64,000 nt of DNA, from NCBI GenBank assembly GCA_965263035.1, contig OZ253580.1, positions 448,001 to 512,000 of the forward strand, in the 5' to 3' direction. Below, one piece after another: positions 12,872 through 62,624 of the stretch. Made by a program: the position numbers and the translations under genes. The notes beneath the pieces are model-generated. The model did not search any database, had not been told where the DNA came from, and saw nothing but the letters and a program-made list of their open reading frames with translations. The stretch's first letter is position 1. Every line of letters starts with the position of its first letter. This stretch comes from Acidobacteriota bacterium (GTDB taxonomy: Bacteria; Acidobacteriota; UBA6911; RPQK01; JAJDTT01).

Positions 12872-12939
12872 GTGGGAGCGGCGGCTTTCTTGCTGCCGAA
12901 CAGGGGGTAAAGGGGGGACGGCAAGTCCCCCCTTTACAG
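12872..12939 (+). repeat. REP-like element, copy 1 (partial composite)
   Basis: GTGGGAGCGGCGGCTTTCTTGCTGCCGAACAGGGGGTAAAGGGGGGACGGCAAGTCCCCCC closely matches 60798-60852 and the reverse complement of 14440-14500. Confidence 0.85.
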
Positions 12940-14345: not shown

Positions 14346-14524
14346 GGACGAGCGACATTCTTGTCGCCTGCCAGGAGGGGCGACTTTCTTGTCGCCCACT
14401 GGGACAGGCGACTTTCTTGTCGCCTGCTCCGGACTGAAGAGGGGGGACTTGCCGTCCCCCCTACCCCCCCTGAGCGGCGACAAGAAAGTCGCCGCTCCCG
14501 CTCGGCGGCTGGAAAGCCGCCGCT
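14346..14524 (-). repeat. BIME-like cluster of REP-like palindromes (copy 2)
   Basis: Four GGCGAC-TTTCTT-GTCGCC type hairpins, a GGGGGGAC-TTGCC-GTCCCCCC hairpin and a GGCGGCT-GGAA-AGCCGCC hairpin. Confidence 0.9.
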
Positions 14525-52858: not shown

Positions 52859-52934
52859 TGGTGGAGCTGATGGGATTCGAACCCACGACCCCCTGAATGC
52901 CATTCAGGTACTCTTCCAACTGAGCTACAGCCCC
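52859..52934 (-). tRNA. tRNA-Ala(GGC)
   Basis: GGGGCTGTAGCTCAGTTGG...CCTGA-ATGGCAT-TCAGG...GGTTCGAATCC...CAGCTCCACCA; 76 nt, G3:U70 pair, encoded CCA. Confidence 0.98.
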
Positions 52935-58546: not shown

Positions 58547-59902
58547 ATGAGCCAGCCGGTTTCCGGCCCCCTGTTGCTTCAGGACCCCGCCTACGACTAT
58601 CCGGTGGTGGAAAGAGGCGAGGGAATCTACGTCTACGACGGCGCCGGCAAGCGTTTCATCGACGGCACCGCCGGAGCCGGCAACGTCATTCTGGGCCACG
58701 GACGCCGGCGGATCGCCCGGATCATGGCCCGCCAGGCCGAGACGCTGGCCTTCGTCTTCACTTCTCATTTCACCAATCCGGTGGCCGCCGAGCTGGCCGG
58801 ACGGCTGGCGGAAAAGGCGCCGGGCCAGCTGAATCATGTCTATTTCGTCTCCGGCGGCTCGGAAGGAGTCGAGACCGCGTTGAAACTGGCACGGCTCTAC
58901 CACCTGCGGCGGGGCCAGGGCCAGAAACATCAGGTCATCGCCCGTTGGAGCAGCTATCACGGAGCCACGCTGGGCGCGCTCTCGACCACCGGATCCGGAG
59001 TCCGGCACGCCTTCAGTCCCTGGCTGGCCGGGTTCGAGCACATCGACCCCTGCCTGCCACGGGCGTGTCTCTTCGACGGATGCGGGGAATCCTGCACGCT
59101 GGCCTGCGCGCGCGAGCTGGAACGGGCCATCATCCGGGCCGGACCGGAGAACGTGGCGGCCTTCGTGGCCGAACCCGTCTCCATGGCCGGCGGTGCCCCA
59201 GCCATTCCGCCGGCCGACTACTTCCCTCGGATACGGGAGATCTGCGACCGCTACGGCGTGCTCTGGATCGCCGACGAAGTGGTGACCGGATTCGGCCGGA
59301 CGGGGCGTTTCTTCGCCATCCAGCACTGGGATGCGGTTCCCGATATCGTGGCCTTCGGCAAAGGCGTCAGCAGCGGCTACCTCCCCATGGGGGGCGCACT
59401 GTTCACCGATGAGATCCGGCACGTGTTGGAAGCCAAGAAAGATGCCCTTCCCCACGTCTTCACCTACGTGAACAACCCTCTCGCCGCCCGGGTCGGGCTC
59501 ACCGTCCTGGACCTGATGGAAGAAGAGAGCATCGTGGAGAGATCGGCCGCCATGGGGGACTACCTGCTGGAGCGAGTCCGGACCCTGCGCAGCCATTCCA
59601 TGGTGGGCGACGTCCGGGGCCTGGGAATGCTGGTGGGGTTCGAACTGGTGAGCTCCCGCAAGCCCTACACCTACTTCCCCCCTAATCTGAAGGTCCATGA
59701 GCGATTGCACCGGCATCTGATCCGCCGGGGACTCTCCATCTCCGCGACGGGAGGTCCCGGCGACGGGAGCCCGGGGGACAGCGTCCGCATCTTCCCCCCC
59801 CTGGCCATCACCCGGGCGGAGATCGACGAAATCGTAGAGATGTTGGACGAGGCGCTCACGGCAGTGCGGCGCCAGATCGAGAGGGTAATGAGGCATGCGT
59901 GA
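58547..59902 (+). CDS. Class III PLP-dependent aminotransferase
   Basis: GAGG RBS; SGGSE, SYHG, AEP, DEVVTGFGRTG, FGKG, PPL. Confidence 0.93.
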   Translation: MSQPVSGPLLLQDPAYDYPVVERGEGIYVYDGAGKRFIDGTAGAGNVILGHGRRRIARIMARQAETLAFVFTSHFTNPVAAELAGRLAEKAPGQLNHVYFVSGGSEGVETALKLARLYHLRRGQGQKHQVIARWSSYHGATLGALSTTGSGVRHAFSPWLAGFEHIDPCLPRACLFDGCGESCTLACARELERAIIRAGPENVAAFVAEPVSMAGGAPAIPPADYFPRIREICDRYGVLWIADEVVTGFGRTGRFFAIQHWDAVPDIVAFGKGVSSGYLPMGGALFTDEIRHVLEAKKDALPHVFTYVNNPLAARVGLTVLDLMEEESIVERSAAMGDYLLERVRTLRSHSMVGDVRGLGMLVGFELVSSRKPYTYFPPNLKVHERLHRHLIRRGLSISATGGPGDGSPGDSVRIFPPLAITRAEIDEIVEMLDEALTAVRRQIERVMRHA

Positions 59903-60167
59903 GAGAGACTTCTACCGGGAACGGCGTGAGACCAAGACGGCTCGGCTCTCCTGTCCCCACTGCCGGGAACCGGGCGACTTCCAGGTCCGATGGCTGGTGC
60001 GGGAGAAAAAGGGCCGTCTGCCCCATCGCACCAACACCGAGGACCGGCGCCGATTCACCAACCTCCGCTCCTACATGGTCCGGGAAGACGAGTACCTCTT
60101 CTGTCCCAACCCCAGGTGCCGCAGACGCTTCGAAATCCCGAGCCAGCAGTCGGTCGTGCTCCTGTAG
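59895..60167 (+). CDS. Small zinc-ribbon protein (90 aa)
   Basis: CPHC and CPNPRC; overlaps the aminotransferase stop; its TAG is part of the REP GTAG. Confidence 0.8.
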   Translation: MRERDFYRERRETKTARLSCPHCREPGDFQVRWLVREKKGRLPHRTNTEDRRRFTNLRSYMVREDEYLFCPNPRCRRRFEIPSQQSVVLL

Positions 60168-60797
60168 ATCGGGTCGGGCGCAGGGGATTGCGCCCCCGCA
60201 CCCTCCCACACCACCGGACGTACCGTTTTCAGTATCCGGCGGTTGGAGTCACCCGAGGCTCTTTCGAGCCTCGTACAGGGCCTTTCTTTCCGGTTTCCGC
60301 CGCCGCTGAGACTTGATCTCCGCCCTTCCGGCTTGCCGGGCTCCACCCGTGGGCCTTCCATGCCGGGTCCGAGGGGCCTCCCCCCGCCCCGTTTTCGGAG
60401 GTAGTTGCGATCCCGCTGACGAGTCCACCATAGGGCCAGTCCGACTCCTTCGGTCCTTCGCTCCACCGGCATTACCCGGCTTCTTCGCTACTACGACCTC
60501 TGCTGACTTCTCAAGGGCTCTCACCCTTGAGATCTCCCCGAGTAAGGTGCTGCATCTTTCCCCCCGGGCCGCCCGGCTCTACCTGATGCGTCTGGATGGG
60601 GTTCGGGTTTCGCTGTTGCTCGCCAGCTCACCGCCCGCACCCGGCCTCACTGCCGGTTCGTGTTCCTGCGGTCGTGGGTTTGCCTTCCGCTTCCTTCAGC
60701 TTCACCTCGCGGCTACGCCTTGCGGTTCGGCTAGGGTTGGTCCCATCACCTCCCTTGGGATCTTTCATCCCTTAGATACAGCCCATGTCGGGCGCAC
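60168..60797 (-). ncRNA. ORF-less group IIC intron ribozyme (630 nt)
   Basis: 5' GTGCGCCCGACATGGG; CTTACTCGGGGAGATCT; AAGTCAGCAGAGGTCGTAGTA...GAAGGACCGAA; domain V AACCGCCGGATAC...GTACGTCCGGTGGT (60210-60244); domain VI ending CCCGAT; no RT ORF. Confidence 0.93.
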
Positions 60798-60930
60798 GAG
60801 CGGCGACTTTCTTGTCGCCGAACAGGGGGGAAAGGGGGACGGAGTCCCCACTCTACACTTTCCGGCAAGAAGAGCAGGCGGCAAGAAAGCCGCCTGTCCC
60901 AGTGGGCGACAAGAAAGTCGCCCCTCCCAG
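60798..60930 (+). repeat. BIME-like REP cluster, copy 3 (intron target)
   Basis: Three GGCG(A/G)C-N6-G(T/C)CGCC hairpins plus a GGGGAC-GGA-GTCCCC hairpin, collinear with the reverse complement of 14375-14500. Confidence 0.9.
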
Positions 60931-61013: not shown

Positions 61014-62624
61014 ATGCAACTGCACTTCGCCGATCACATGGTCCTGGTGGCCTACCTGGGAGCCATGATGTTTCTGGGTTGGCGGCTCTCCCGGGGCCAG
61101 ACGACCGGTGAGGAGTACTTCCTGGGTGGGCGGCGGCTTCCCTGGTTCGCCGTGGGCATAAGCATCATCGCCTCCCTGCTCTCCAGCATCAGTTTCCTGG
61201 CCTATCCCGGCGTGGTCTGGCGTTTCGGCTTCGGAAACCTGGTGAGCACCTTCCTCGGTTTTCCCATCCACGTGGCCTTCATCCTGCTGCTGACCATTCC
61301 CTTCTTCGTCCGCTTCCGCTTCACCACCGCTTACGAGTACCTGGAACACCGGTACGGCCTCTCGGCGAGGCTCCTGGGAGCCTCCATGTTCCTGGTGTTC
61401 GTGTCGGTTCTGATGATGGTGATCGTCCTGGTCTCTTCCCGGGCCCTGGCCGTGGCCACAGGCATCCCTCTGATCGTCATCATCCTCACCGTCGGCGTCG
61501 TGGCCACGGTCTACACCATGATGGGCGGGATTCGGGCCGTGGTGTGGACCGACGTGATCCAGGTGGCGCTGCTTCTGGGCGGCGGATTTTTCACCATCGG
61601 CTACGTGGCCTGGGCCACCGGCTCCAACCTTTGGGATTGGATGGAGGTGGTCAACCTCCGAGACAACGAGAGCTTCACCTTCTTCTCGCCCGACCCGACC
61701 CTGCCGGCGACGGTGGTCACCTTCACCTTGACCGACGCGCTCTGGATCGTCGTCGCCCACTGCGCCAACCAGATGACCATGCAGCGTTACTTCAGCACCG
61801 TGGACGTCGCGGCCAGCAAGCGGAGCATGGTGACCGGAGCGGTCACCGGAATCATCATCATCCTGGTCCTCACCATCGTGGGCGCCAGCCTGGTCTACTA
61901 CTTCACCCAGGGACCCGAGCCCCTTCCCGGTCACATCGACCTGGCCAACGGCAAGGACCGGGACAGCATCTTCCCCTTCTTCGTAGCCTCCCGAGTCCCG
62001 CCCGGCCTGGCCGGCGCCATCTTCGCCGCGCTGCTGGCGGCCGCCATGTCCACCATCGACTCGGGGGTGAACTCCTTTGCCACGGTGGCCACCGTGGATT
62101 TCGGACGCCTGCGCAAGAAGAAAAAACCCGTGGACCAGGTCCACCAGGCCCGCATCATCACCCTGGTGGTGGGCTTGGCAGTGACGTTGGGAGCCTTCTT
62201 CCTGGACAACCTCACCGGCGCCGACGACATCCTGACCATCCTGCCCAAGACCTTCAACTCGCTGGTGGGTCCCATGGGCGGGCTCTTTCTGGCCGGGATG
62301 CTCCTGCCCCGCGCCGGCCGGAGAACCGTCTGGCCGGCGGCCATCATCGGCTTCCTGACGGCCCTCGGGGTCGCTTATTCCCAGCCCCTGCTCCAGTCTC
62401 TCAGCCCCGCGGCCCAGCAGACACTGGTGTCGCTGCTGGGAGAGAACTTCGGCCCGCGGCTGATCGAGAAGGGGATGGGTTTCACCTGGATCATGCCCTC
62501 CTCCTTCGCCGCCAGCTTCGGCACGGCCTGGATCCTGAGCCTGATCTTCCCCAACCGGAACCAGGACCGCCTGGCCGGACTGACCTGGAAGACCCGCCAC
62601 GAGAAGACCTGGCTGGCCTCGTGA
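61014..62624 (+). CDS. Sodium:solute symporter (SSS family)
   Basis: EYFLGGRRLPW, TAYEYLE.RYG, YTMMGGIRAVVWTDVIQ, QRYF, AAAMSTIDS. Confidence 0.94.
   Translation: MQLHFADHMVLVAYLGAMMFLGWRLSRGQTTGEEYFLGGRRLPWFAVGISIIASLLSSISFLAYPGVVWRFGFGNLVSTFLGFPIHVAFILLLTIPFFVRFRFTTAYEYLEHRYGLSARLLGASMFLVFVSVLMMVIVLVSSRALAVATGIPLIVIILTVGVVATVYTMMGGIRAVVWTDVIQVALLLGGGFFTIGYVAWATGSNLWDWMEVVNLRDNESFTFFSPDPTLPATVVTFTLTDALWIVVAHCANQMTMQRYFSTVDVAASKRSMVTGAVTGIIIILVLTIVGASLVYYFTQGPEPLPGHIDLANGKDRDSIFPFFVASRVPPGLAGAIFAALLAAAMSTIDSGVNSFATVATVDFGRLRKKKKPVDQVHQARIITLVVGLAVTLGAFFLDNLTGADDILTILPKTFNSLVGPMGGLFLAGMLLPRAGRRTVWPAAIIGFLTALGVAYSQPLLQSLSPAAQQTLVSLLGENFGPRLIEKGMGFTWIMPSSFAASFGTAWILSLIFPNRNQDRLAGLTWKTRHEKTWLAS

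What the first reader, a model, noticed from the sequence alone, without database searches (positions are those of the whole stretch)
60612..60627. Candidate EBS1 loop is complementary to the REP target
Seen: domain I contains the hairpin GCTG-GCGAGCAA-CAGC (minus strand). Its loop GAGC (60618-60621) pairs with the last four 5'-exon bases, GCTC. The empty repeats present the same GCCGCTC|C junction (minus strand near 12875, plus strand near 14497), so they are predicted unoccupied homing sites. Assigning this loop as EBS1 is an inference from its position.
Basis: partly seen in the sequence, partly recalled or inferred. Interest (0 to 1): 0.7.

Follow-up and report, generated by a model that had tools for sequence, protein, structure and literature searches.

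The report
EBS1 loop of a REP-homing intron
The four-base loop is the exon-binding site of a small, protein-less group IIC self-splicing intron that inserts behind a repeated DNA hairpin, an ordinary feature of this intron class that is unusually well documented in this genome.

Summary
The observation and the interpretation both hold. Window 60797-60168 (minus strand) is a 630-nt ORF-less group IIC intron (Rfam hits). The hairpin GCUG-GCGAGCAA-CAGC lies at 60627-60612, and its GAGC (60621-60618, intron nt 177-180) is complementary to the 5' exon end GCUC.

The bare 4-nt match is at chance level: GAGC occurs 7 times in the intron against 5.8 expected. The assignment rests on three other results.
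- Rfam aligns the loop to the variable 4 nt of the homologous hairpin.
- Among 56 related IIC introns, 53 pair exon -1..-3 with this loop and 31 pair all four. Shuffles give a mean of 12.9; slid registers give 0-13.
- In the same genus, introns with GAGG sit after CCTC (8 of 8 read) and those with GAGC after GCTC (26 of 26).

EBS3 is G219 (window 60579); 41 of 43 homologues pair it with the first 3' exon base.

The genome holds 24 copies. 19 are ORF-less, 2 carry a 409-aa class-C reverse transcriptase, and 3 are interrupted. There are well over 100 empty GCTC|C hairpins. One public run bridges this site with exactly 630 nt missing.

It is a new member of a known kind.

The parts
60168..60797 (-). 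630-nt ORF-less group IIC intron (GUGCG ... CGAU)
   Evidence: Rfam RF02001 85.5 bits (60549-60716), RF01998 45.3 bits (60453-60546), RF00029 40.3 bits (60168-60244), all at or above gathering score. Boundaries are shared by 18 copies of exactly 630 nt and by a contig joint that skips 60168-60797.
60612..60627 (-). Terminal hairpin of domain I subdomain d that carries EBS1: stem nt 171-174/183-186, loop nt 175-182
   Evidence: In the MFE fold with pair probability 0.92. The stem covaries: 91.4% of cells paired and all 4 pairs change on both sides.
60618..60621 (-). EBS1, 5'-GAGC-3' (intron nt 177-180)
   Evidence: Pairs with the exon end GCUC. Covaries with exon -1..-4 in 56 homologues and within the genus.
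60622..60622 (-). C176, candidate delta nucleotide just 5' of EBS1
   Evidence: Inference only, by analogy with C183 of the E. rectale intron. It is C in 55 of the 56 aligned rows, so covariation cannot test it.
60579..60579 (-). EBS3, G219 in GUA-G-AG
   Evidence: The best variable column for pairing with the first 3' exon base; 41 of 43 rows paired, shuffle mean 31.5, maximum 38.
60798..60801 (-). IBS1, 5'-GCUC-3', the last four 5' exon bases
   Evidence: All 23 copies with the standard 5' end are preceded by GCTC.
60167..60167 (-). IBS3, C, the first 3' exon base. It is also the complement of the G of the TAG stop codon of the plus-strand ORF 59895-60167.
   Evidence: C follows the intron in the 22 copies whose 3' end the script placed correctly. 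ORF.
60801..60820 (-). REP-type hairpin CGGCGAC-AAGAAA-GUCGCCG. Its last G is also IBS1 position -4.
   Evidence: fold -12.7 kcal/mol; the stem ends 3 nt before the splice site. 22 of 23 copies follow such a hairpin.
60255..60272 (-). GAAA-capped stem GAGGCUC-GAAA-GAGCCUC in domain IV, in the place of the reverse-transcriptase ORF
   Evidence: Comparison of the 630-nt and 1848-nt copies. Nt 1-528 match nt 1-531 at 91% and nt 540-630 match nt 1758-1848 at 99%.
14475..14498 (+). Predicted empty target: CGGCGAC-AAGAAA-GTCGCCG-CTC|C
12875..12898 (-). Predicted empty target with one stem mismatch: CGGCAGC-AAGAAA-GCCGCCG-CTC|C

Best explanation
The loop GAGC (intron nt 177-180) is EBS1 of a 630-nt ORF-less group IIC intron.

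Target recognition, in both splicing and reverse splicing into DNA:
- EBS1 pairs with GCUC/GCTC, which directly follows a REP-type hairpin.
- G219 (EBS3) pairs with the next base, C.
- The hairpin stands where IIA and IIB introns have IBS2.

The target is therefore hairpin + GCTC|C, a motif this genome holds more than a hundred times.

The ORF-less copies would be spliced and moved by the 409-aa class-C reverse transcriptase/maturase that two 1848-nt sister copies encode, acting in trans. Insertion would be into the hairpin-forming lagging-strand template at replication forks.

Shown here: the pairing rule, the boundaries, the site preference and the strand bias. Inferred: catalysis, action of the protein in trans, and priming at the fork.
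For: IIC identity.
- Three Rfam group II hits.
- Domain V reads CCGCC where the Rfam consensus has GAGCC, which gives the CGC triad. The AGGAA bulge motif is present. Both are named as IIC marks in passages of PMC1702495.
- The sister-copy protein has RVT_1 and GIIM only. Its best solved relatives are GsI-IIC RT (1.6e-133) and the E. rectale IIC maturase (2.6e-101).

Position. Rfam aligns GAGC to the variable part of the conserved hairpin loop. The E. rectale intron has delta 183, EBS1 184-187 and EBS3 231; here they fall at 176, 177-180 and 219.

Wide covariation.
- Of 80 related loci, 54 gave an aligned 5' end. With 2 own copies that makes 56 rows.
- Pairing at exon -1, -2, -3, -4 is 55, 55, 55 and 33 of 56. 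53 rows pair all of -1..-3, and 31 pair all four.
- Dealing exons out anew among introns gives a mean of 12.9 and a maximum of 25 in 5000 trials. Slid registers give 0-13.
- On an independent MAFFT alignment the EBS1-IBS1 helix is 89% paired and all 4 pairs change on both sides. For the whole 8-pair structure (EBS1-IBS1 plus the hairpin stem) the covariation score is 0.771 against 0.209 shuffled (0 of 500 reach it); slides give 0.08-0.21.

Close covariation. Same-genus introns 87-91% identical to this one carry GAGG and follow CCTC: G001 1 copy, G003 6, G008 1. GAGC copies follow GCTC: G000 24, G004 2. All four genomes checked (G000, G001, G003, G004) hold both repeat variants. By one narrow pattern G003 has 75 GCTCC and 33 CCTCC sites, and G001 has 78 and 4.

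Occupancy in this genome. 20 of 183 hairpin+GCTC sites are occupied against 0 of 147 hairpin+CCTC sites (Fisher p 5.9e-6). One copy lies at a CCGCTC|C site without a hairpin, and the genome holds 3273 CCGCTCC sites in all.

EBS3. 41 of 43 rows pair with the first 3' exon base.

Boundaries. A contig of run X1 joins 60167 to 60798, with 56 nt on the shorter side and depth 11, equal to the depth of the flanks.

Strand bias. 19 of 23 copies are co-directional with the replication fork (binomial p 0.0026). The origin is set by dnaA at 2.872 Mb, which matches the GC-skew minimum at 2.86 Mb.
Against: - No experiment: splicing, reverse splicing and action of the protein in trans are all inferred.
- Exon position -4 pairs in only 33 of 56 homologues. 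In IIC introns at large the fourth pair is therefore optional.
- Here -4 is also the closing pair of the hairpin stem, so it must open to pair with EBS1.
- Three of 56 rows (L038, L052, L093) fail at one of -1..-3.
- The homologues are related to each other. There are 48 distinct exon/hairpin combinations and 29 distinct loop 4-mers, so shuffle counts overstate independence.
- The two protein-coding copies are only 91% identical to the ORF-less ones over nt 1-528. Whether their protein binds the ORF-less domain IV is untested.
- The library type of run X1 is not on record. The intron-less contig could be an empty DNA site or a spliced RNA.
Confidence: 0.9

Rival explanations
1. Only GAG (nt 177-179) works as EBS1. 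The fourth match (C180 with G at -4) would be a by-product of which repeat subfamily each lineage happened to colonise. Recognition of that position would come from the hairpin shape or the protein.
For: The fourth position pairs in only 33 of 56 homologues. In this clade -4 lies inside the target stem. Passages of PMC1702495 describe the IIC pairing as 3-4 bp.
Against: Within the genus the fourth loop base and exon -4 switch together: GAGC/GCTC in 26 of 26 copies read and GAGG/CCTC in 8 of 8. Both repeat variants are available in all four genomes checked. In this genome 0 of 147 CCTC hairpins are occupied against 20 of 183 GCTC hairpins.
Confidence: 0.12
2. The complementarity is chance. Target choice would rest wholly on the hairpin and the protein, or EBS1 would lie at another GAGC (nt 169 or 219).
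For: GAGC occurs 7 times in the intron against 5.8 expected.
Against: Sliding the pairing register by 1-3 nt removes the signal: 0-13 of 56 against 53 of 56, and covariation 0.08-0.21 against 0.771. The nt 169-172 region is conserved GAG whatever the exon. Nt 219 covaries with the 3' exon, not the 5' exon.
Confidence: 0.03
3. The pairing rule is right, but the family is no longer mobile. The ORF-less copies would be relics, and the empty GCTC|C repeats would not in practice be used.
For: Only 2 of 24 copies encode the protein, and they differ by 9% from the ORF-less copies over nt 1-528. One copy has a mutated 5' end (GUACG) and three are interrupted. No assay was done.
Against: The 18 copies of 630 nt are 94.3-100% identical pairwise, median 97.9%. 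22 of 23 keep the GAGC loop; the exception is the copy interrupted before nt 177. A public run holds this locus without the intron while holding the intron elsewhere. The burst of ORF-less copies is particular to this genome among those searched: one ORF-less copy was seen in each of G001, G003 and G008.
Confidence: 0.25

Closest known systems
Eubacterium rectale group IIC intron-maturase RNP on a DNA stem-loop (cryo-EM, PMC10190682; passages read)
   Same: The loop layout C(delta)-NNNN(EBS1)-A sits at the tip of domain I subdomain d. There are four EBS1-IBS1 pairs, and one EBS3-IBS3 pair from the coordination loop about 40 nt further on. The target is a DNA stem-loop. The sister-copy protein matches this maturase at 2.6e-101.
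   Different: EBS1 is AAAG on a T-rich site with a spacer after the stem. Here EBS1 is GAGC, the site is G+C-rich, and the stem ends 3 nt before the insertion point, so -4 lies in the stem. The window copy has no ORF.
B.h.I1 of Bacillus halodurans (PMC1702495; abstract and passages read)
   Same: IIC marks: CGC in domain V, the AGGAA bulge, 3-4 bp EBS1-IBS1, an EBS3 as in IIB introns, and a stem-loop where IBS2 would be. Several genomic copies lie behind inverted repeats.
   Different: B.h.I1 follows intrinsic terminators with runs of U and encodes its protein. Here the inverted repeat is a REP-type genomic repeat without a U run, and most copies are ORF-less.
GsI-IIC of Geobacillus stearothermophilus
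   Same: Its RT is the best solved relative of the sister-copy protein (1.6e-133). I saw it described as highly proliferative only in a reference-list title.
   Different: The paper was not held, so nothing about its RNA or targets was checked.
IIC-attC introns (abstract of PMC3001079 in the listing; review passage)
   Same: A IIC lineage that specialises on a repeated, structured DNA element rather than on terminators.
   Different: Its target is the integron attC site. Here the target is a REP-type hairpin spread over the chromosome.
ORF-less bacterial group II introns that rely on a related intron's protein (review PMC4424553; passages read)
   Same: The ORF-less copies lie in a genome that also holds closely related protein-coding copies. 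The review says this is nearly always the case.
   Different: The review calls such introns rare in bacteria. Here they outnumber the coding copies 19 to 2, and they are class IIC.
Pseudomonas putida KT2440 group II intron next to REPs (one table passage of PMC1525189)
   Same: A group II intron is recorded as associated with REP elements.
   Different: Only 2 of 9 copies are associated there, with no pairing rule given in the passage seen. Here 22 of 23 copies are.

Membership tests
Group IIC intron | Group II ribozyme domains detected by covariance models | tested here: met
   RF02001 85.5 bits (gathering 32), RF01998 45.3 (35), RF00029 40.3 (40).
Group IIC intron | Domain V with CGC in place of the AGC triad (feature as stated in PMC1702495) | tested here: met
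   In the RF00029 alignment the consensus gaGAGCCGUAU is matched by AACCGCCGGAU. All 80 related 3' regions aligned carry the same CCGCC.
Group IIC intron | Bulge with a conserved AGGAA in the epsilon-prime region (PMC1702495) | tested here: met
   GCUGAAGGAAGC is aligned to the consensus UCUGAAGGAAgc.
Group IIC intron | Short (3-4 bp) EBS1-IBS1 from a terminal loop of domain I | tested here: met
   GAGC pairs with GCUC. Covariation.
Group IIC intron | EBS3-IBS3 single pair with the first 3' exon base | tested here: met
   G219 pairs with C; 41 of 43 homologues paired.
Group IIC intron | No EBS2/IBS2; a stem-loop in the 5' exon instead | tested here: inconclusive
   The stem-loop is present in 22 of 23 copies and in the homologues. 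I did not search domain I for an EBS2.
Group IIC intron | Class-C intron-encoded protein without an endonuclease domain | tested here: met
   Holds for the two 1848-nt sister copies only: 409 aa, RVT_1 and GIIM; best solved relatives are IIC proteins. The window copy has no ORF.
Group IIC intron | Self-splicing and retromobility | not testable with these tools
   Indirect only: precise shared boundaries and one contig without the intron.
REP (repetitive extragenic palindrome) | Short G+C-rich palindrome present in more than 100 copies | tested here: met
   1171 perfect-stem hairpins fit a loose pattern in the genome. I did not test whether all are extragenic.
REP (repetitive extragenic palindrome) | A Y1 (RAYT-type) transposase gene flanked by the repeats (the feature is recalled; two related abstracts appeared in the listing) | tested here: inconclusive
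   Two PF01797 matches. One, at genome 3478135, has repeat hairpins on both sides, including GGGGGTTGAAAACCCCC+GCTCC. Their orientation and the protein's subtype were not analysed.

The most novel reading that the evidence does not exclude
The 630-nt element is a still-active, non-autonomous (MITE-like) group IIC retroelement that has specialised on a REP family. A single base of EBS1 decides which REP subfamily a lineage colonises: GAGC goes with GCTC|C and GAGG with CCTC|C. Related species carry the two settings. In this genome the ORF-less form has outgrown its protein-coding parent 19 to 2, with more than 100 target sites still empty.
Probability: 0.55. Interest if true: 0.55.

Novelty: new member of a known kind. 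Interest (0 to 1): 0.42.

Why it matters
The finding gives a tested site rule for this intron family: hairpin + GCTC|C.

It is also a natural example of retargeting by one EBS1 base between close relatives. Both target variants are available in each genome, so the effect of the base pair can be separated from site supply.

The 630-nt ORF-less ribozyme with a neat GAAA cap in domain IV is a compact natural IIC RNA. It comes with a defined partner protein and DNA hairpin target, which would suit splicing, mobility or structural work.

For genome biology, it shows a REP family serving as a landing pad for a retroelement.

None of this changes how IIC introns are thought to work.

Tried and rejected
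- Two papers were not held: PMC6082379 on GsI-IIC and PMC2525955 on ORF-less introns. Precedents in them could lower the novelty further. No supplements were asked for.
- PMC12584367 concerns a IIB1 intron and was set aside. PMC7161350 had nothing on the spacing between stem and IBS1.
- Literature searches for IIC introns homing to REPs and for ORF-less IIC expansions found only the KT2440 table line and general statements. This covers the held library only and is not proof that nothing is in print.

A direct structural alignment with the O. iheyensis or B. halodurans RNAs was not done. I used the Rfam alignment and the residue numbers of the E. rectale paper instead.

My first guess put EBS3 in the internal loop at nt 194-207. 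The column scan rejected that and pointed to nt 219.

Rows dropped:
- Of 80 loci, 26 gave no usable 5' end. They had no GTGYG 500-640 nt upstream of the ORF, a truncated contig, or a candidate not aligned to the intron start.
- For EBS3, 13 of 56 rows were dropped. Reasons were a gap at nt 219 in the 270-nt cut, an unusual 3' tail (L048, L079, L100), or no 3' flank.
- In one search the 3' end of the interrupted copy at genome 3067627 was misplaced by the script, so its 3' exon base was not read.

Reads:
- The joints in X17 (RNA; 24 nt on the shorter side) and X3 (28 nt, with 13 other letters in between) are below the 31-nt bridging rule and are not counted.
- Contig depth over the intron says nothing about expression or strand.
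- Other joints at 60821-60929 are repeat-to-repeat joins and were not interpreted.

REP hairpins in the other orientation (loop TTTCTT) followed by TGCTCC are unoccupied. They are about 20 in number, too few to interpret.

Full report
**1. Observation.**
On the minus strand, window 60627-60612 reads GCTG-GCGAGCAA-CAGC, with GAGC at 60621-60618. The intron begins GTGCG at 60797, and the 5' exon ends GTCGCCGCTC at 60798. The hairpin is in the minimum-free-energy fold of the whole intron and of three shorter contexts. Its pair probability is 0.92 and its loop is unpaired.

The two empty repeats are as described. CGGCAGC-AAGAAA-GCCGCCG-CTC|C ends at 12876 on the minus strand. CGGCGAC-AAGAAA-GTCGCCG-CTC|C ends at 14497 on the plus strand.

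The 4-nt match alone is not significant. GAGC occurs 7 times in the intron against 5.8 expected.

**2. What the element is.**
Rfam finds three group II models in a row on the minus strand, all at or above their gathering scores:
- RF02001 at 60716-60549, 85.5 bits
- RF01998 at 60546-60453, 45.3 bits
- RF00029 (domains V-VI) at 60244-60168, 40.3 bits

The intron is 630 nt (60797-60168) and has no protein ORF.

Domain V has CGC where the general consensus has AGC, and the AGGAA bulge motif is present. Passages of PMC1702495 name both as marks of class IIC.

**3. Copies in the genome.**
The genome is 6.198 Mb in one contig. It holds 23 copies with the same 25-nt 5' end:
- 18 copies of exactly 630 nt
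- 2 copies of 1848 nt
- 3 interrupted copies

One further degenerate copy has a 5' GUACG, is 632 nt long, and is followed by T.

The 1848-nt copies encode a 409-aa protein with RVT_1 and GIIM domains only. Its best solved relatives are GsI-IIC RT (1.6e-133) and the E. rectale IIC maturase (2.6e-101).

The ORF-less form matches the long form over nt 1-528 (91%) and over the last 91 nt (99%). A GAAA-capped stem stands in the place of the ORF.

The 18 copies of 630 nt are 94.3-100% identical pairwise, median 97.9%.

**4. Homology of the loop.**
In the RF02001 alignment the hairpin matches a conserved hairpin whose loop consensus is GC-aaaa-cA. GAGC falls on the four variable positions.

Passages of the E. 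rectale cryo-EM paper give the layout there:
- delta is C183
- EBS1 is A184-G187, in a loop at the tip of domain I subdomain d
- A188 follows
- EBS3 is A231, in the coordination loop

Here C176, G177-C180, A181 and G219 have the same order and nearly the same spacing.

**5. Wide covariation.**
A scan with the 409-aa protein returned 80 related loci with 47-72% protein identity. In 54 of them a GTGYG 500-640 nt upstream of the ORF aligned to the intron start. With two own copies this makes 56 rows.

- Exon positions -1, -2, -3 and -4 pair with loop nt 177, 178, 179 and 180 in 55, 55, 55 and 33 rows.
- 53 rows pair all of the first three, and 31 pair all four.
- L038, L052 and L093 each miss one of the first three.
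- Dealing the exons out anew among introns gave a mean of 12.9 and a maximum of 25 in 5000 trials for the first three.
- Sliding the register by 1-3 nt gave 0-13.

On a separate MAFFT alignment (A1) the pair-counting tool gave 89% paired cells for the EBS1-IBS1 helix, with all four pairs changing on both sides. For the whole 8-pair structure (EBS1-IBS1 plus the hairpin stem) the covariation score was 0.771 against 0.209 shuffled (0 of 500 reached it), and 0.08-0.21 when slid.

The rows are related to each other. There are 48 distinct combinations and 29 distinct loop 4-mers, so these figures are not probabilities.

**6. Close covariation.**
The intron was searched for in 20 relatives. Same-genus copies that are 87-91% identical carry GAGG in the loop and follow hairpins ending CCTC:
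- G001: 1 copy
- G003: 1 ORF-less copy and 5 protein-coding copies
- G008: 1 copy

The two G004 copies carry GAGC and follow GCTC, like all copies here.

Both repeat variants exist in all four genomes checked (G000, G001, G003, G004). A narrow 14-nt pattern gives these counts for G000, G001, G003 and G004:
- GCTCC sites: 101, 78, 75, 31
- CCTCC sites: 35, 4, 33, 21

Site choice therefore follows the loop base and not site supply.

**7. EBS3.**
All aligned 3' ends read ...CGAU, followed by a variable base. A scan of every domain I column for pairing with that base picked nt 219, in GUA-N-A, as the best variable column.

The contingency table is:
- G with C 20, G with U 9
- A with U 9, A with C 1
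- U with A 2, U with G 1, U with C 1

That is 41 of 43 paired, against a shuffle mean of 31.5 and maximum of 38. In this intron nt 219 is G (window 60579), and the 3' exon starts with C in the 22 copies read.

**8. Target.**
All 23 copies follow GCTC. 22 of them follow a hairpin of the repeat family, with arms such as GGCGAC, GGCGGC, GGGGGT or GGGGAC. One copy lies at CCGCTC|C without a hairpin.

A loose pattern finds 1171 perfect-stem hairpins in the genome. The five bases after the arm are GCTCC in 163, CCTCC in 147, and GCTCG in 20, of which 19 run on as GTGCG.

Occupancy is 20 of 183 for GCTC against 0 of 147 for CCTC (Fisher p 5.9e-6).

The genome has 3273 CCGCTCC sites in all. A hairpin therefore raises use by orders of magnitude, as expected for IIC.

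In this clade the stem ends 1-4 nt, mostly 3, before the insertion point and there is no U run. The more distant homologues have U-rich spacers, mostly of 5-9 nt. Exon -4 is thus the closing pair of the stem.

A Y1 transposase gene flanked by such hairpins fits the REP label but was not analysed further.

**9. Reads.**
Only contigs were available. In run X1 (library type not on record) a 1226-nt contig joins 60167 to 60798 and skips exactly 630 nt. It has 56 nt on the shorter side and depth 11, equal to the depth of the flanks. Intron sequence is present at higher depth in the same run.

This fixes the boundaries. It shows either an empty DNA allele or a spliced RNA.

The joints in X17 and X3 are below the bridging rule and are set aside.

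**10. Mechanism.**
- dnaA lies at 2.872 Mb, at the cumulative GC-skew minimum of 2.86 Mb.
- 19 of 23 copies have their sense strand co-directional with the fork. They are therefore in the lagging-strand template (binomial p 0.0026).
- A review passage says that introns without an endonuclease domain use nascent strands at the fork as primers.
- A survey passage reports a strong strand bias for class-C introns. I did not check how it defines the strands.

Taken together, the most likely course has five steps:
1. The RNA binds the protein made by a coding copy.
2. The RNP docks on a REP hairpin extruded from single-stranded lagging-strand template.
3. GAGC pairs with GCTC, and G219 pairs with the next C.
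4. The RNA reverse-splices between them.
5. A nascent strand primes cDNA synthesis.

The pairing rule, site preference, boundaries and strand bias are shown. The remaining steps are inferred by analogy with IIC introns.

**11. Comparison and novelty.**
Every defining IIC feature I could test was met. Absence of an EBS2 was not examined, and activity cannot be tested here.

The abstract of PMC1702495 already says that IIC introns lie behind terminators 'or other inverted repeats'. A review says that ORF-less bacterial introns nearly always sit beside related coding copies.

The finding is therefore a new member of a known kind. Three things are less usual:
- the repeat family serves as the landing pad
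- the single-base EBS1 switch between congeners is matched to two repeat subfamilies
- ORF-less copies outnumber coding copies 19 to 2

In the held library I found only one table line linking a group II intron to REPs, 2 of 9 copies in P. putida KT2440.

Noticed in passing
genome G000 (window = C1:448001-512000); window copy 60168-60797: ORF-less copies outnumber protein-coding copies 19 to 2. The ORF is replaced by a GAAA-capped stem (window 60255-60272). In G001, G003 and G008 one ORF-less copy was seen in each (648-657 nt).
   Followed up: partly
genome C1:3067890-3069673 and C1:3923463-3925243: A 1782-bp insertion sequence interrupts two intron copies, at intron nt 264 and 350, in opposite orientations. 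About 11 copies are in the genome. Its 388-aa ORF looks like a DDE transposase by eye; no family search was run.
   Followed up: partly
genome C1:5180457-5185638: A third intron copy is broken: nt 1-120 and nt 265-630 lie 4.7 kb apart. The insert holds a weak Bac_DnaA-type ATPase match at 5180883-5181170, possibly a helper gene of another insertion sequence.
   Followed up: no
window 60821-60860, 12901-12930, 14441-14470: The target hairpin is often preceded by a second conserved unit, GGGGGAC-TTGC-CGTCCCCC followed by a run of C. The repeat is therefore composite (BIME-like). Many intron 5' flanks share it.
   Followed up: no
L101 (genome C1:3476635-3479865), Y1_Tnp match at 1501-1731: A 133-aa Y1 transposase ORF has repeat hairpins about 400 nt upstream and about 65 nt downstream, including the GGGGGTTGAAAACCCCC+GCTCC type that two intron copies use.
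   Followed up: partly
window 59895-60167 (+): A 90-aa cysteine-rich ORF ends with TAG at 60165-60167. The intron lies on the opposite strand directly against this stop codon, so no gene is interrupted. The next plus-strand gene starts at 61014.
   Followed up: no
G009, G011, G012 (same family, other genus) and genome C1:985039, 5053294, 5537303, 5841889: Many 40-42-nt matches (85-94% identity) to intron nt 303-344, the stretch conserved in RF01998; up to 28 per genome. They are probably other group II introns or a short repeat derived from one.
   Followed up: no
window 14400-14429 (+) and 60872-60900 (-): Repeats in the opposite orientation (loop TTTCTT) are followed by TGCTC. The one at 14429 is followed by C and would fit IBS1 and IBS3 with a longer spacer. 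None of about 20 such sites in the genome is occupied.
   Followed up: no
window 52862-52934 (-): A tRNA gene (Rfam, 65.2 bits), unrelated to the finding.
   Followed up: no
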